Shown: piece after piece, positions 5,892 to 8,677 of the stretch
Layout of the letters: every line of letters starts with the position of its first letter
How positions within the stretch are numbered: position 1 is the first letter of the stretch
IMG/VR virus record: IMGVR_UViG_2585427755_000002
Location: 1-9,500 of that record
Direction: 5' to 3' (one strand)
Origin: a virus
Taxonomy: Duplodnaviria; Heunggongvirae; Uroviricota; Caudoviricetes
DNA length: 9,500 nucleotides
Translations under genes and position numbers: made by a program
The notes under the pieces: generated by a model
What the model was told of the DNA's origin: nothing
What the model saw: only the letters and a program-made list of their open reading frames with translations
Database searches by the model: none

Positions 5892-6254
5892 ATGGCTAGC
5901 GAACGCAGTACTGATGTGCAGGCATTTATCGGGGAGCTGGACGGCGGCGTATTTGAAACCAAAATCGGCGCAGTTCTCAGTGAAGTCGCTTCCGGTGTGA
6001 TGAACACGAAAACCAAAGGTAAGGTCTCACTCAACCTGGAAATCGAACCATTTGATGAGAACCGTGTGAAAATCAAACACAAACTCTCATATGTTCGCCC
6101 GACTAACCGCGGGAAAATTTCCGAAGAAGACACCACCGAAACGCCGATGTATGTCAATCGCGGTGGTCGCCTGACTATTCTGCAGGAAGACCAGGGACAG
6201 TTACTGACTCTTGCCGGTGAACCTGACGGAAAACTCCGCGCAGCAGGTCGTTAA
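5892..6254 (+). CDS. yfdP: YfdP-like hypothetical phage protein (120 aa)
   Basis: ATG at 5892 is preceded by GAGGAG (5879-5884). The longer track ORF from 5574 is a non-coding-looking extension. Length (120 aa) and position match my recollection of CPS-53 yfdP; identity is unverified. Confidence 0.75.
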   Translation: MASERSTDVQAFIGELDGGVFETKIGAVLSEVASGVMNTKTKGKVSLNLEIEPFDENRVKIKHKLSYVRPTNRGKISEEDTTETPMYVNRGGRLTILQEDQGQLLTLAGEPDGKLRAAGR

Positions 6255-6319
6255 TATCGTTTTTAATTAACCGATTATTTATCTCATCACTGAATATCTT
6301 TATATAGTGAGGACTTATT

Positions 6320-7144
6320 ATGTCTCAGAACTTAGACGCAACCGCAATTAATCAAATCCATGCCCTTATTTCTGCTCAGGGTGTTAATGAAATTATCAGT
6401 AAGATTGGTGCCGATGCTGTGGCATTGCCTGAGAATTTCCGCATTCATGATCTGGAAAAATTTAATTTAAATCGCTTCCGTTTCCGTTGTGCGCTTTCCA
6501 CTTCCAGCATCGAGGACTTTACCCGTTATTCTAAAGATCTTGCAGATGAAGGCACCCGCTGCTTTATCGATGCCGATAATATGCGAGCCGTCAGTGTGCT
6601 TAACCTGGGTACTATTGATGAACCAGGTCACGCAGATAACACCGCCACTCTCAAACTGAAAAAGACAGCACCGTTCTCTGCTCTGTTGTCTGTTAATGGC
6701 GAGCGTAACTCCCAAAAGTCACTGGCAGAATGGATTGAAGACTGGGCCGACTACCTTGTGGGCTTTGATGCTAATGGTGACGCCATTCAGGCAACCAAAG
6801 CGGCTGCGGCGATCCGTAAAATCACAATTGAAGCGAACCAGACCGCTGATTTTGAAGACAATGACTTCAGCGGCAAACGCTCCCTGATGGAGTCTGTCGA
6901 AGCGAAGACCAAAGACATTATGCCAGTGGCATTTGAATTTAAATGCGTTCCGTTTGAAGGCCTGAAAGAACGTCCGTTTAAATTACGCCTCAGCATTATC
7001 ACTGGCGATCGTCCTGTACTGGTTCTGCGCATTATTCAGCTGGAAGCGGTGCAGGAAGAAATGGCTAACGAATTTCGTGATCTGCTTGTTGAGAAATTTA
7101 AAGACAGCAAAGTAGAAACCTTTATTGGTACTTTCACCGCCTGA
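6320..7144 (+). CDS. yfdQ: YfdQ-like phage protein (274 aa; DUF2303-type as I recall), function unknown
   Basis: Clean 274-aa ORF with GAGGA 7 nt before the ATG. Length and gene order match yfdQ of CPS-53 as I recall it. Confidence 0.8.
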
Positions 7145-7156
7145 TTTCATTACTGC

Positions 7157-7178
7157 AAATGCCCCTGCGGGGGCATTT
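7157..7178 (+). terminator. Hairpin AAATGCCCC-TGCG-GGGGCATTT between yfdQ and the HD-domain gene (possible terminator or attenuator)
   Basis: A 9-bp perfect palindrome with a 4-nt loop, 13 nt after the yfdQ stop. The U-tract is short and lies within the stem arm (TTTAT), so termination efficiency is uncertain. Confidence 0.4.
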
Positions 7179-7271
7179 ATGGAAACATAATTTACTCAAT
7201 AATCGCCGGATGGTGAGGGCTTCCTTTTACCAGAATTCAGCGCGGTGCAGCGCATATACGTGGAGAACAAA

Positions 7272-7808
7272 ATGTCATTTATTAAAACTTTTTCCGGGAA
7301 GCATTTTTATTATGACAAGATAAATAAAGACGACATCGTTATTAACGATATCGCGGTTTCCCTTTCAAATATCTGTCGCTTTGCAGGACATCTTTCACAC
7401 TTCTACAGTGTCGCCCAGCATGCGGTGCTTTGCAGCCAGCTGGTGCCGCAGGAATTTGCTTTTGAAGCGTTAATGCATGATGCAACAGAAGCGTATTGCC
7501 AGGATATTCCCGCTCCACTGAAACGCCTTCTTCCTGACTATAAACGGATGGAAGAAAAAATAGACGCCGTAATCCGTGAGAAATACGGGTTACCCCCGGT
7601 TATGAGTACACCCGTGAAATATGCCGATCTCATCATGCTGGCAACCGAACGCCGCGATCTCGGGCTTGATGATGGCTCTTTCTGGCCTGTACTAGAAGGC
7701 ATCCCGGCAACAGAGATGTTCAACGTGATTCCACTGGCACCGGGCCATGCCTACGGGATGTTTATGGCACGCTTCAACGAGTTATCGGAATTACGCAAAT
7801 GTGCATAA
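7272..7808 (+). CDS. yfdR: HD-domain phosphohydrolase (YfdR-like 5'-deoxynucleotidase family)
   Basis: H...HD metal-binding signature (SVAQHAVLCSQL ... EALMHDATEAY). ATG at 7272 (MSFIKTFSGK...) with GGAG 8 nt upstream gives 178 aa, matching K-12 YfdR length as I recall. The track's GTG at 7245 is an upstream extension. Confidence 0.85.
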   Translation: MSFIKTFSGKHFYYDKINKDDIVINDIAVSLSNICRFAGHLSHFYSVAQHAVLCSQLVPQEFAFEALMHDATEAYCQDIPAPLKRLLPDYKRMEEKIDAVIREKYGLPPVMSTPVKYADLIMLATERRDLGLDDGSFWPVLEGIPATEMFNVIPLAPGHAYGMFMARFNELSELRKCA

Positions 7809-8677
7809 CTCATGTAGTTAGTTTTTCTGGCGGGAGAACATCTGCATATCTTGTTCACCTGATGGAAGAACAAAGAAAGGCTGGTAATAACGTCTGCTAC
7901 ATCTTTATGGATACCGGTTGCGAACATCCGCTGACATACCGCTTTATTCGGGAGGTTGTGAAGTTCTGGGGCATACCGCTAACTGTGTTGCAGGTCGATA
8001 TAAATCCAGAGCTTGGGCAGCCAAATGGTTATACGGAATGGGAACCAAAGGATATTCAGACGCGAATGCCGGTGCTTAAACCGTTTATGGACATGGTAAA
8101 AAAATATGGCACGCCATACATCGGCGGCGCGTTCTGCACTGACAGATTAAAACTCACCCCCTTCACAAAATACTGCGATGACCATTTCGGACGAGGGAAT
8201 TACATCACATGGCTGGGTATTCGTGCAGACGAACCTCGTAGGCTGAAACCGAAATCAGGCGTCCGGTATCTTGCCGAGCTATCTGATTTTGATAAGTCGG
8301 ATGTTATCCGGTGGTGGCATAAACAACCTTTTGATTTGCAAATCCCGGAGCACCTCGGGAACTGTGTTTTCTGCATCAAAAAGTCCACGCAAAAGCTGGG
8401 GCTTGCATGTAAAGACGAACCTGGTCTGATGAGAGTTTTTAATGAGCTGGTTACAGGTAAACACGTCCGGGATGGTCACCGAAAGACAGATAAAGACGTT
8501 ATGTACCGTGGTCATCTGAGTCTTGACGGGATTGCCAGAATGTATGCCGACAGCGACTACAGAAATTTGTATCAGGCGATGGTGCAAGCCAGGCGATTCG
8601 ATACCGGCTCGTGTTCAGAGTCATGTGAAATCTGGGGTGATCAATTGGAGTTGAAATTCGAAGAGGTGGTGGCATGA
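7799..8677 (+). CDS. PP-loop ATP pyrophosphatase, PAPS-reductase-like family protein (292 aa)
   Basis: N-terminal PP-loop motif VSFSGGRTSAYL (SGGxxS) and C-terminal Cys clusters (GNCVFCIKKS; GSCSESCEIW). The start overlaps the HD gene end by 10 nt and the stop overlaps the next ATG as ATGA, indicating a coupled operon. Confidence 0.85.
   Translation: MCITHVVSFSGGRTSAYLVHLMEEQRKAGNNVCYIFMDTGCEHPLTYRFIREVVKFWGIPLTVLQVDINPELGQPNGYTEWEPKDIQTRMPVLKPFMDMVKKYGTPYIGGAFCTDRLKLTPFTKYCDDHFGRGNYITWLGIRADEPRRLKPKSGVRYLAELSDFDKSDVIRWWHKQPFDLQIPEHLGNCVFCIKKSTQKLGLACKDEPGLMRVFNELVTGKHVRDGHRKTDKDVMYRGHLSLDGIARMYADSDYRNLYQAMVQARRFDTGSCSESCEIWGDQLELKFEEVVA

What the first reader, a model, noticed from the sequence alone, without database searches (positions are those of the whole stretch)
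5892..8677. Coupled yfdP / yfdQ / HD-phosphohydrolase / PP-loop cassette: candidate nucleotide-targeting accessory system
Four consecutive plus-strand genes sit in the accessory early-left region: a 120-aa and a 274-aa protein of unknown function, an HD-domain phosphohydrolase and a PP-loop PAPS-reductase-like enzyme. The HD and PP-loop genes overlap by 10 nt, and the PP-loop gene overlaps the next ATG, so they are probably co-translated. HD hydrolases act on (deoxy)nucleotides or signalling nucleotides; PP-loop enzymes adenylate substrates in sulfur or nitrogen transfer. No defined function for this pairing in a lambdoid early region is known to me. Plausible roles are DNA or nucleotide modification (a Dam methylase sits on the other arm) or counter-defense against nucleotide-based host immunity. 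The assignment to a specific role is hypothesis.
Basis: partly seen in the sequence, partly recalled or inferred. Interest (0 to 1): 0.7.

Follow-up and report, generated by a model that had tools for sequence, protein, structure and literature searches.

The report
Prophage yfdPQR genes plus ninC
The four neighbouring prophage genes are real, but they are a patchwork of already named phage genes (yfdP, yfdQ, yfdR and a close relative of phage lambda's ninC) that assort independently, not one coupled nucleotide-targeting machine.

Summary
Four plus-strand genes lie at 5892-8677, with a 10-nt HD/PP-loop overlap and a 4-nt overlap with the next gene.

The interpretation as one cassette does not hold. 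Three genes are E. coli K-12 CPS-53 yfdP, yfdQ and yfdR (98-99% protein identity). The literature already describes this cluster as common in lambdoid early-left operons. The PP-loop gene is an ortholog of phage lambda ninC (79% identity).

Linkage is uneven:
- yfdP sits directly upstream of yfdQ in 79 of 79 species-level loci.
- yfdR follows in 59 of 80.
- A NinC-like gene is nearby in 1 of 80.
- NinC homologs below 95% identity never sit next to yfdR. They lie in the nin region, in P22-like early regions or on P1-like plasmids.
- In K-12 an unrelated gene (yfdS) uses the same 10-nt overlap, and homology breaks exactly there.

A better link exists for NinC: it recurs abutting or fused to phage Dam methylases. 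One such fusion, 55% identical (Vibrio phage 44E38.1 p0018), lies in a two-gene insert shown experimentally to give escape from Dnd restriction.

Verdict: ordinary lambdoid mosaicism joining known genes. YfdP and YfdQ remain biochemically unexplained.

The parts
5892..6254 (+). yfdP (120 aa), obligate upstream partner of yfdQ; biochemical function unknown
   Evidence: 98.3% identical to K-12 YfdP. Matches phrog_204. Homologs carry precomputed Pfam PF27127 'YfdP'. GAGGAG ribosome-binding site. Directly upstream of yfdQ in 79 of 79 testable species-level loci. AF2 model pLDDT 65: a long helix plus three long strands, with no meaningful PDB match.
6320..7144 (+). yfdQ (274 aa, DUF2303)
   Evidence: Pfam DUF2303 at E = 5e-91. 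98.5% identical to K-12 YfdQ. Relative of PDB 9o7m 'YfdQ Protein', deposited with 36 chains. AF2 model pLDDT 76, with no full-length fold match. Required, together with yfdR, for multicopy inhibition of oriC initiation in K-12 (PMC4776307).
7157..7178 (+). 9-bp GC-rich hairpin in the 127-nt yfdQ-yfdR spacer; possible weak terminator or RNA-stability element
   Evidence: Sequence AAATGCCCC-TGCG-GGGGCATTT. Folding energy -18.2 kcal/mol, z = -2.8 against shuffles. Not called by the terminator scan because it lacks a T-tract.
7272..7808 (+). yfdR (178 aa), HD-domain protein of the 5'-deoxynucleotidase family that binds DnaA
   Evidence: 98.9% identical to K-12 YfdR. HD..D..D residues align with YfbR. 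Matches phrog_318, dNMP phosphatase, and PDB 2gz4 at E = 2e-14. DnaA binding is reported in PMC4776307. Present downstream of yfdQ in 59 of 80 species-level loci.
7799..7808 (.). 10-nt overlap of yfdR stop and downstream start; also the mosaic breakpoint
   Evidence: Window ATGTGCATAA versus K-12 ATGCGCATGA. Nucleotide homology to K-12 ends here, and K-12 continues with the unrelated yfdS.
7799..8677 (+). ninC ortholog (292 aa): PP-loop ATP-pyrophosphatase-like protein of the DndC/SspD/PAPS-reductase superfamily; independently assorting accessory gene
   Evidence: 79% identical to lambda NinC over 290 aa. Matches phrog_424. Contains SFSGGRTS and DTGxEH motifs and six family-invariant Cys: 113, 126, 189, 192, 272, 276. 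PADLOC SspD at E = 1.5e-15, N-terminal half only. Contexts elsewhere.
8674..9006 (+). ead/Ea22-like gene whose ATG overlaps the ninC stop (ATGA)
   Evidence: Pfam Ead_Ea22 at E = 7e-12. Overlap sequence.
693..1379 (-). phage Dam-family N6-adenine methylase on the other arm; the same domain is fused to or abuts NinC in other phages
   Evidence: Pfam PF05869 at E = 9e-46. 72% identical to the Dam domain of the NinC-Dam fusion P0114.

Best explanation
The region is a junction of independently assorting modules in the pL (early-left) operon of a lambdoid prophage. It is not one enzyme system.

(1) yfdP-yfdQ is an obligate gene pair. It sits in the early DNA-metabolism part of temperate phages. Its biochemistry is unknown. 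A relative of YfdQ has been deposited in the PDB as a 36-chain entry.

(2) yfdR is a frequent but dispensable third member. It is an HD-domain protein of the 5'-deoxynucleotidase family. The K-12 protein, 99% identical, binds DnaA domain I. When over-supplied together with yfdQ and either yfdS or yfdT, it inhibits initiation at oriC. Inferred: early after induction the trio dampens host replication initiation or adjusts dNMP pools.

(3) The PP-loop gene is an ortholog of lambda ninC. It is a DndC/SspD-like adenylating enzyme with a canonical PP-loop and six invariant cysteines. Inferred: these form an Fe-S site plus a C-terminal catalytic Cys pair. It moves among nin regions, early-left regions and P1-like plasmids. 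Inferred from a 55%-identical Dam-fused homolog: it is a counter-defence gene against phosphorothioate-dependent (Dnd/Ssp-type) restriction. It would act as a DndC mimic or decoy, or use the host Dnd machinery to mark phage DNA.

The 10-nt and 4-nt overlaps are the usual tight packing of lambdoid operons. The yfdR 3' end supplies the ATG for whichever gene recombination places downstream.
For: Identity of the parts:
- YfdP, YfdQ and YfdR are 98.3%, 98.5% and 98.9% identical to the K-12 proteins.
- The cluster is described in PMC12315714 as common in lambdoid early-left operons.
- NinC is 79% identical to lambda NinC. It is non-essential and uncharacterised.

Linkage:
- In 80 species-level genome loci, P-Q adjacency holds in 79 of 79 testable loci, R is present in 59 of 80, and NinC in 1 of 80.
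- The P-Q-R trio is conserved at 55-64% identity in Klebsiella and Yersinia without NinC.
- Viral loci carrying NinC show YfdR only where NinC is at least 95% identical to the window copy. At 93-94% the upstream gene is unrelated. At 75-83% the neighbours are NinB and NinD. At 51-56% it is NinB or nothing.
- Of yfdR-anchored viral loci, 64 of 80 carry a yfdS homolog in the flank and 13 of 80 carry NinC.
- In E. coli complete genomes, the yfdR 3' end occurs in at least 2,535, ninC in 551 and the junction in 283.
- The breakpoint lies exactly at the overlap.

NinC function:
- Dam abuts, is fused to or lies near NinC in 12 of about 42 diverse loci, involving two divergent Dam subfamilies.
- Vibrio phage 44E38.1 p0018 (my P0097) together with p0019 confers escape from Dnd (10.1101/2021.05.05.442762). 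PMC13551039 cites this as a phage PAPS reductase evading Dnd.

YfdR and YfdQ function: PMC4776307.
Against: - No experiment exists on this NinC or on lambda NinC.
- The anti-Dnd result was for a Dam fusion moved together with a second gene, so the contribution of the PAPS domain alone is not isolated.
- Phosphorothioate synthesis needs a P-loop NTPase partner (PMC12914056), and none is encoded in the window.
- The DnaA effect of yfdQ/yfdR needed multicopy supply. Deleting the genes gave no replication phenotype.
- YfdR's affinities for nucleotides are reported as much lower than YfbR's.
- About half of the E. coli genomes carrying ninC have the yfdR junction (283 of 551). A lineage-specific functional interplay therefore cannot be excluded by comparative data alone.
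Confidence: 0.75

Rival explanations
1. The HD hydrolase and the PP-loop enzyme are a co-translated functional pair, with YfdP and YfdQ as accessories, acting on nucleotides or signalling nucleotides.
For: The two genes overlap by 10 nt and no strong ribosome-binding site precedes the PP-loop ATG. The junction is present in 283 complete E. coli genomes and in 62 of the 80 closest viral loci.
Against: K-12 uses the same overlap for the unrelated yfdS. The pairing is limited to NinC alleles at least 95% identical to this one. NinC appears in 1 of 80 species-level yfdQ loci. NinC is found with NinB/NinD, NinG/YlcG, DUF2737 and P1-like neighbours and no HD gene. Other downstream genes also overlap yfdR, by 1-4 nt.
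Confidence: 0.05
2. The PP-loop gene is a true assimilatory PAPS reductase (cysH-type auxiliary metabolic gene) that boosts host sulfur assimilation, as much of the viromics literature assumes.
For: Pfam, PHROG and RefSeq names. Phage 'PAPS reductase' is treated as an auxiliary metabolic gene in PMC13369170. Gilliamella and Snodgrassella are the predicted hosts of the phages in that study, and a Gilliamella homolog (P0104) is 53% identical to this protein.
Against: Only the N-terminal 66 of 175 Pfam positions match. The NCBIfam CysH equivalog scores 20 bits against a cut-off of 154. There is no ECG[LI]H catalytic motif, and the PP-loop is a canonical SGGxxS. CysH and APS reductase structures align only over residues about 4-100. 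NinC recurs fused to or beside Dam methylases and sits in DNA-metabolism regions. There is a genetic link to Dnd escape.
Confidence: 0.07
3. YfdP and YfdQ (with or without YfdR) are an unrecognised recombination or DNA-end module that replaces Red/Erf functions in this prophage, which lacks a canonical Rec module.
For: No exo, bet, erf or recT gene lies between cI and int in the closest full prophage. Distant YfdPQ pairs are flanked by YqaJ, RecT, SSB, Gp157 and 3'-5' exonuclease genes. A yfdQ deletion is weakly MMS- and H2O2-sensitive (cited in PMC4776307). The YfdQ model ends in a beta-beta-beta-alpha unit.
Confidence: 0.15
4. The region is an anti-defence island. Each gene independently counters a different host immunity, and they are neighbours only because the early-left accessory region is a hotspot. 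In this view YfdR removes dNMP-type alarm ligands and NinC counters phosphorothioate-dependent restriction.
For: NinC has the Dnd link. A host defence triggered by m6-dAMP released from degraded DNA has been described (10.64898/2026.01.15.699771), and a dNMP phosphatase would destroy such a ligand. The genes downstream of yfdR are highly variable.
Against: No anti-defence data exist for YfdR, YfdP or YfdQ. PADLOC and the literature give no link. The m6-dAMP paper reports DNA mimics, not nucleotidases, as the counter-defence.
Confidence: 0.15

Closest known systems
E. coli K-12 CPS-53 (KpLE1) yfdP-yfdQ-yfdR(-yfdS-yfdT) cluster; ST64B gp35-37, LLS gp37-39, SfV orf29-31
   Same: The same three genes in the same order and spacing, at 98-99% protein identity. 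The position is the same, just after the immunity region in the early-left operon.
   Different: K-12 continues with yfdS (an ead/DUF551-like gene) at the 10-nt overlap. This window continues with a ninC ortholog.
Phage lambda NinC (Orf290)
   Same: Full-length ortholog: 79% identity and the same length, PP-loop and Cys motifs. It is non-essential and has no assigned function.
   Different: In lambda the gene lies in the nin region of the pR operon, between ninB and ninD. Here it is in the pL operon after yfdR.
Vibrio phage 44E38.1 p0018 (PAPS-reductase-Dam fusion), part of an anti-Dnd insert (Piel et al.)
   Same: The N-terminal 280 residues are 55% identical to the window protein over essentially its whole length, including all invariant Cys.
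   Different: The Vibrio protein carries a fused C-terminal Dam domain and was tested together with a neighbouring gene. In the window, Dam is a separate gene 6.4 kb away on the other strand.
DndC / SspD / BrxP (PAPS-reductase-domain proteins of phosphorothioate modification systems)
   Same: PP-loop ATP-pyrophosphatase N-terminal half: PADLOC SspD at E = 1.5e-15, BrxP at 1e-4, DndC at 9e-4. Cysteine-rich.
   Different: Only the N-terminal half matches. There are no adjacent DndD/SspC-type NTPase, DndE/SspB or desulfurase genes.
Assimilatory PAPS/APS reductase CysH
   Same: Shares the fold of the N-terminal nucleotide-binding region.
   Different: It fails the CysH equivalog cut-off, lacks the ECGLH motif, and has a canonical PP-loop. 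Its genomic context is phage DNA metabolism.
YfbR (E. coli HD-domain 5'-deoxynucleotidase) and Atu1052 (PDB 2gz4)
   Same: HD fold and the HD..D..D metal ligands. The family is annotated as dNMP phosphatases.
   Different: YfdR is only 22% identical to YfbR, and its Pfam YfbR-like score is just below the cut-off. YfdR also binds DnaA and has lower nucleotide affinity.

Membership tests
Lambda NinC family (phrog_424) | Full-length sequence homology to lambda NinC/Orf290 | tested here: met
   79% identity over 290 aa, without gaps. phrog_424 at E = 2e-93.
Lambda NinC family (phrog_424) | Family-invariant motifs: SFSGGRxS PP-loop, DTGxEH, Cys113/126, C189xxC192, C272xxxC276 | tested here: met
   All are present and invariant across 19 sequences down to 52% identity.
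Lambda NinC family (phrog_424) | Location in the nin region between P/ren and Q | tested here: not met
   Here the gene is in the early-left operon after yfdR. Position is variable across the family, so it is not a strict criterion.
Assimilatory PAPS/APS reductase (CysH) | Passes the curated equivalog model; full-length domain match | tested here: not met
   NCBIfam NF002537 scores 20.3 bits against a cut-off of 154. The Pfam match covers profile positions 2-66 of 175 only.
Assimilatory PAPS/APS reductase (CysH) | C-terminal ECG[LI]H catalytic cysteine motif | tested here: not met
   No such motif is present. The C-terminus reads GSCSESCE.
Assimilatory PAPS/APS reductase (CysH) | Thioredoxin-dependent reduction of PAPS/APS to sulfite | not testable with these tools
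   Needs an enzyme assay or cysH complementation.
Phosphorothioate modification system (Dnd/Ssp/BREX-4) | PAPS-reductase-domain protein homologous to DndC/SspD/BrxP | tested here: inconclusive
   PADLOC SspD at E = 1.5e-15, but only residues 5-152 against profile positions 2-125 of 277. The DndC and BrxP matches are weak.
Phosphorothioate modification system (Dnd/Ssp/BREX-4) | Adjacent P-loop NTPase (DndD/SspC/BrxC) and DNA-recognition component | tested here: not met
   No real gene in the window has a Walker-A motif, and no such neighbours are present. The requirement is stated in PMC12914056.
Phage anti-Dnd PAPS-Dam protein (Vibrio phage 44E38.1 p0018) | Homology of the PAPS-like domain | tested here: met
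   55.5% identity over 283 aa, E = 2e-109.
Phage anti-Dnd PAPS-Dam protein (Vibrio phage 44E38.1 p0018) | C-terminal fused Dam methylase domain | tested here: not met
   The window protein ends after the PAPS-like domain. Dam is a separate gene at 693-1379 on the minus strand.
Phage anti-Dnd PAPS-Dam protein (Vibrio phage 44E38.1 p0018) | Confers escape from DndFGH restriction | not testable with these tools
   Needs plating on Dnd-positive hosts. It has been shown only for the Vibrio two-gene insert.
YfdR / YfbR-like HD 5'-deoxynucleotidases | Orthology to K-12 YfdR | tested here: met
   98.9% identity over 178 aa.
YfdR / YfbR-like HD 5'-deoxynucleotidases | HD-domain metal ligands (H...HD...D...D) | tested here: met
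   The HDAxE, D78 and D119 columns are invariant with YfbR. The first His is not cleanly aligned by MAFFT.
YfdR / YfbR-like HD 5'-deoxynucleotidases | Passes the Pfam YfbR-like or NCBIfam 5'-deoxynucleotidase cut-off | tested here: not met
   PF12917 scores 24.1 bits against 25.9. NF003009 scores 19.8 against 122. YfdR is a distinct subfamily: phrog_318 at E = 3e-111.
YfdP-YfdQ module | DUF2303 protein immediately preceded by a YfdP-family gene on the same strand | tested here: met
   The window spacing is 65 nt. The same arrangement holds in 79 of 79 species-level loci.
Known anti-phage defence systems (PADLOC) | Any of the four proteins matches a defence-system model as part of a complete system | tested here: not met
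   There are no hits for YfdP, YfdQ or YfdR, and only partial SspD/DndC/BrxP similarity for NinC.

The most novel reading that the evidence does not exclude
The early-left accessory stretch is a stack of independent counter-defence and host-takeover functions.
- NinC, including lambda's long-unexplained ninC, would be a stand-alone DndC mimic that defeats phosphorothioate-dependent restriction (Dnd/Ssp/BREX-4).
- YfdR would remove dNMP-type alarm ligands such as m6-dAMP, or dampen DnaA.
- YfdP and YfdQ would form a large oligomeric assembly with a new fold that acts on phage or host DNA.
If so, the many phage 'PAPS reductases' now counted as sulfur auxiliary metabolic genes in viromes would largely be mis-assigned anti-restriction genes.
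Probability: 0.15. Interest if true: 0.6.

Novelty: already known. Interest (0 to 1): 0.25.

Why it matters
As a 'system' it does not matter much. It is an ordinary mosaic junction between named genes, and the exact arrangement is already annotated in hundreds of E. coli genomes.

Three by-products have some value.

1. Lambda's ninC, unexplained for decades, is a full-length homolog of the PAPS-like domain in a Vibrio phage insert shown genetically to defeat Dnd. This gives a directly testable function for ninC in E. coli and Salmonella phages.

2. NinC-type proteins fail every CysH-specific test used here. Virome studies nonetheless count them as sulfur-metabolism genes, so those ecological inferences may rest on a mis-annotation.

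3. yfdP-yfdQ is a strictly linked pair that extends to marine gammaproteobacteria. It has no recognisable fold relatives, and a relative of YfdQ has been deposited as an unpublished 36-chain structure. It is a clean target for functional work.

Tried and rejected
- Sequence search of the PDB for YfdP found nothing significant.
- PDB 9o7m ('YfdQ Protein', 36 chains) is absent from the fold libraries, and no paper mentioning it or DUF2303 function was found. I could not learn what the assembly is.
- The weak PDB hit 'PptA' (21fy, E = 0.56) led nowhere in the literature.
- PADLOC and NCBIfam gave nothing for YfdP or YfdQ.
- I considered YfdS to be a truncated NinC and rejected it: there is no similarity.
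- I considered YfdPQ to be hidden recombinases and rated this unlikely.
- I considered NinC to be a complete phosphorothioate writer and rated this unlikely, because no NTPase partner is encoded.
- The published version of Piel et al. 2022 is not in the library, so I used the preprint.
- I did not use the representative-protein search or a metagenome scan, because the linkage question was already answered.

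
Full report
**What is there.**

The window is the immunity and early region of a lambdoid prophage. On the minus strand it carries a LexA-DNA-binding-domain protein, a Dam-family methylase (693-1379), a PerC-like gene, an HTH replication-initiator-like gene, a DUF4222 gene, a CII/CP76-like gene and a Cro-like gene. 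On the plus strand it has a cI-like S24 repressor (4025-4717), followed by a strong terminator (4737-4754) and then the early-left operon.

The four genes of the finding are real:
- yfdP, 5892-6254.
- yfdQ, 6320-7144. It matches DUF2303 at E = 5e-91.
- yfdR. Its true start is most likely ATG 7272, not the GTG 7245 of the mechanical ORF list. It ends at 7808.
- A PP-loop gene, 7799-8677.

yfdR and the PP-loop gene overlap by 10 nt (ATGTGCATAA). The PP-loop stop overlaps the ATG of an ead/Ea22-like gene in an ATGA. RefSeq annotates the identical arrangement in other E. coli genomes. In the closest one, the operon runs on to yfdT, an excisionase-like gene and an integrase next to tRNA-Thr.

**The parts are named genes.**

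YfdP, YfdQ and YfdR are 98.3%, 98.5% and 98.9% identical to the proteins of the K-12 cryptic prophage CPS-53. [quoted passage not shown] The first is a putative 5'-nucleotide phosphatase and the other two have no known function. The authors judge them unlikely to be hidden recombinases, because the cluster also occurs in phages with a complete Rec module (PMC12315714).

The PP-loop gene turned out to be an ortholog of phage lambda ninC (Orf290). A 76%-identical DNA hit lies between ninB and ninD in a lambda prophage that carries rexAB, cI, cro, cII, O, P and ren. The proteins are 79% identical over 290 residues without a gap. NinC is non-essential and functionally uncharacterised.

**Are the four genes linked?**

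The answer differs from gene to gene.

*Evidence from K-12.* K-12 has yfdP-yfdQ-yfdR followed, at the very same 10-nt overlap (ATGCGCATGA), by yfdS, which shows no similarity to the PP-loop protein. Nucleotide homology between the window and K-12 ends exactly at the yfdR stop. The ATG therefore belongs to the conserved 3' end of yfdR, and whatever gene recombination places downstream uses it. In Klebsiella and Yersinia relatives, other unrelated genes overlap yfdR by 1-4 nt. Overlap here is a feature of operon packing, not evidence of partnership.

*Counts in 5,426 complete E. coli genomes.*

| Feature | Genomes |
|---|---|
| yfdPQR block, at least 80% covered | 2,456 |
| yfdR 3' end | at least 2,535 |
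| ninC-like gene | 551 (74 places on plasmids) |
| yfdR\|ninC junction | 283 |

*One genome per species.* I examined 80 loci found with a YfdQ profile:
- A YfdP homolog lies directly upstream of yfdQ in 79 of 79 testable loci. These include Hahella, Marinobacter, Kistimonas, Alcanivorax and Vibrio at 39-46% identity.
- A YfdR homolog lies downstream in 59 of 80. It is absent from all ten non-enterobacterial loci.
- A NinC-like ORF lies within 4 kb in 1 of 80, with a weak score.

*Viral contigs anchored on NinC, sorted by identity to the window protein.*

| NinC identity to window | Neighbour |
|---|---|
| 95% or more | YfdR upstream |
| 93-94% | an unrelated 158-aa or 226-aa gene upstream |
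| 75-83% | NinB and NinD |
| 51-56% | NinB or nothing recognisable |

Other contexts include a P22-like early-left region after DUF2737, a NinG-NinC-YlcG-Q arrangement, and P1-like plasmids.

*Conclusion on linkage.* yfdP-yfdQ is an obligate pair. yfdR is a frequent, facultative third member. ninC is an independently assorting accessory gene that one recent E. coli lineage happens to carry after yfdR.

**What NinC is likely to do.**

The family alignment (19 sequences, down to 52% identity) keeps several features invariant:
- a canonical PP-loop, SFSGGRxS;
- a DTGxEH motif;
- six cysteines: C113, C126, C189xxC192 and C272xxxC276.

It is not a CysH:
- Only the first 66 of 175 Pfam positions match.
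- The NCBIfam CysH equivalog scores 20 bits against a cut-off of 154.
- There is no ECGLH motif.
- PAPS and APS reductase structures align only over residues about 4-100.

The best defence-library match is SspD (E = 1.5e-15, N-terminal half), with weaker matches to BrxP and DndC. In other words, it resembles the PAPS-reductase-domain proteins that install DNA phosphorothioates.

Several homologs are fused C-terminally to a phage Dam methylase (PF05869). Among about 42 diverse NinC viral loci, Dam abuts NinC in 8, is fused to it in 3 and lies within 3 kb in one more. Two Dam subfamilies are involved that are only 29% identical to each other, which argues for more than one fusion or association event. 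The Dam domain of one fusion is 72% identical to the window's own Dam gene.

One of these fusions, P0097, is p0018 of Vibrio phage 44E38.1 and is 55% identical to the window protein over 283 residues. Piel et al. showed that moving p0018 plus the adjacent p0019 into a sister phage allowed it to grow on a host carrying Dnd. [quoted passage not shown] A 2026 NAR paper cites this as a phage PAPS reductase evading Dnd, and notes that such genes cluster in anti-defence hotspots (PMC13551039).

Phosphorothioate synthesis needs a PAPS-domain protein and a P-loop NTPase (PMC12914056). The window encodes no NTPase. If NinC acts on this pathway, it must borrow host components or act as a decoy. This step is inference.

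**What YfdP, YfdQ and YfdR are likely to do.**

*Shown for the K-12 proteins (PMC4776307).*
- YfdR binds DnaA through domain I residue Phe46.
- Multicopy yfdQ + yfdR + (yfdS or yfdT) inhibits oriC initiation. yfdP is not needed for this.
- Deleting the genes gives no replication phenotype.
- YfdR has an HD domain and is a structural homolog of the dNMP phosphohydrolase YfbR, but with much lower nucleotide affinities.

The HD..D..D ligands are conserved in the window protein. I infer a host-takeover or nucleotide-pool role early after induction, with low confidence.

*YfdQ.* Its AF2 model (pLDDT 76) has no full-length fold relative. A 274-residue 'YfdQ Protein' that aligns along nearly its whole length (E = 5e-44) is deposited as PDB 9o7m with 36 chains, so a large assembly is possible. 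I found no paper on it. A DUF2303 protein was detected in virions of Burkholderia phage JC1.

*YfdP.* The model shows a long helix plus a three-stranded sheet, followed by a conserved but low-confidence tail.

*Context.* In distant hosts the pair sits among YqaJ, RecT, SSB, Gp157, 3'-5' exonuclease and C5-methylase genes. That places it in phage DNA metabolism but does not define its activity.

**Comparison and verdict.**

The finding is a correct reading of the gene content and a wrong inference of a coupled system. Everything in it is already named and annotated. The HD/PP-loop pairing is a lineage-specific mosaic junction.

Counter-defence has literature support, and the association with Dam is real. 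The likely target, however, is phosphorothioate-dependent restriction rather than nucleotide-based immunity.

I rate novelty as 'already known' and interest as low (0.25). Two residual points are worth a bench test: the link between lambda ninC and anti-Dnd activity, together with the probable mis-annotation of NinC-type genes as sulfur auxiliary metabolic genes; and the unexplained but strictly linked yfdP-yfdQ pair.

Noticed in passing
window 693-1379 (-) and 7799-8677 (+); loci L325, L328, L329 (fusions); L289, L290, L297, L309, L310, L317, L319 (abutting): NinC homologs recur fused to or directly beside phage Dam methylases of two divergent subfamilies. The window's own Dam gene is 72% identical to the Dam domain of one NinC-Dam fusion (P0114), yet here it sits on the opposite arm.
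   Followed up: partly
window 6320-7144; PDB 9o7m: A relative of YfdQ (E = 5e-44 to the window protein) is deposited in the PDB as 'YfdQ Protein' with 36 chains in a single entry. The entry is missing from the fold libraries, and no paper mentioning it or a DUF2303 function was found. The nature of the assembly is unknown.
   Followed up: partly
window 7157-7178 (+): A perfect 9-bp GC-rich hairpin (AAATGCCCC TGCG GGGGCATTT; -18.2 kcal/mol, z = -2.8) lies in the 127-nt spacer between yfdQ and yfdR. It has no T-tract. It may be a weak terminator, a processing site or an RNA-stability element separating yfdPQ from yfdR and the downstream genes.
   Followed up: partly
window 7799-8677; homolog P0104 (Gilliamella): Virome studies count this protein family as a cysH-type sulfur auxiliary metabolic gene, for example in honey-bee gut phages of Gilliamella and Snodgrassella (PMC13369170). 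NinC-type proteins fail the CysH equivalog cut-off, lack the ECGLH motif and match PAPS_reduct only over the N-terminal third. Those metabolic inferences may rest on a mis-annotation.
   Followed up: partly
L405:2029-3615 (+) (Pontibacterium MAG prophage): A 528-aa protein combines an N-terminal YqaJ-type exonuclease domain with a C-terminal T7 Gp5.9-like RecBCD-inhibitor domain. It lies just after a RecT gene and just before the yfdP-yfdQ pair.
   Followed up: no
L400:4914-5399 and L401:4866-5276: In Kistimonas and Hahella prophages an SSB gene directly follows yfdQ, at the position yfdR holds in enterobacterial prophages. In Yersinia, Marinobacter and Vibrio loci a 3'-5' exonuclease (RNase_T/Rv2179c-like) lies a gene or two downstream.
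   Followed up: no
window 5454-5891: This roughly 440-nt stretch upstream of yfdP is GC-richer than its surroundings (54% against about 42%) and has no clean gene. The yfdP reading frame stays open upstream to an ATG at 5574. RefSeq annotates a frameshifted hypothetical gene at the equivalent place in the closest genome. It may be a decayed gene or the nut/N-like region of the pL operon.
   Followed up: no
window 4737-4754 (+): A strong intrinsic-terminator-like hairpin (GGCCACC GAAA GGTGGCT followed by TTTTTATT) lies 20 nt after the cI-like repressor stop. This fits termination of the pRM transcript before pL/oL, as in lambda.
   Followed up: no
window 370-696 (-): A 108-aa protein consists only of a LexA DNA-binding domain, with no S24 peptidase domain. 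It lies next to the Dam methylase. It may be a non-cleavable LexA mimic that modulates the host SOS response or prophage induction.
   Followed up: no
L004 (plasmid pVTB432v-3) and 74 plasmid places: A 90-93% identical ninC copy sits on P1-like phage-plasmids of about 80-98 kb. It follows a DUF968 gene and a 226-aa hypothetical gene, close to a Ref recombination-enhancement nuclease and a TnpB gene.
   Followed up: no
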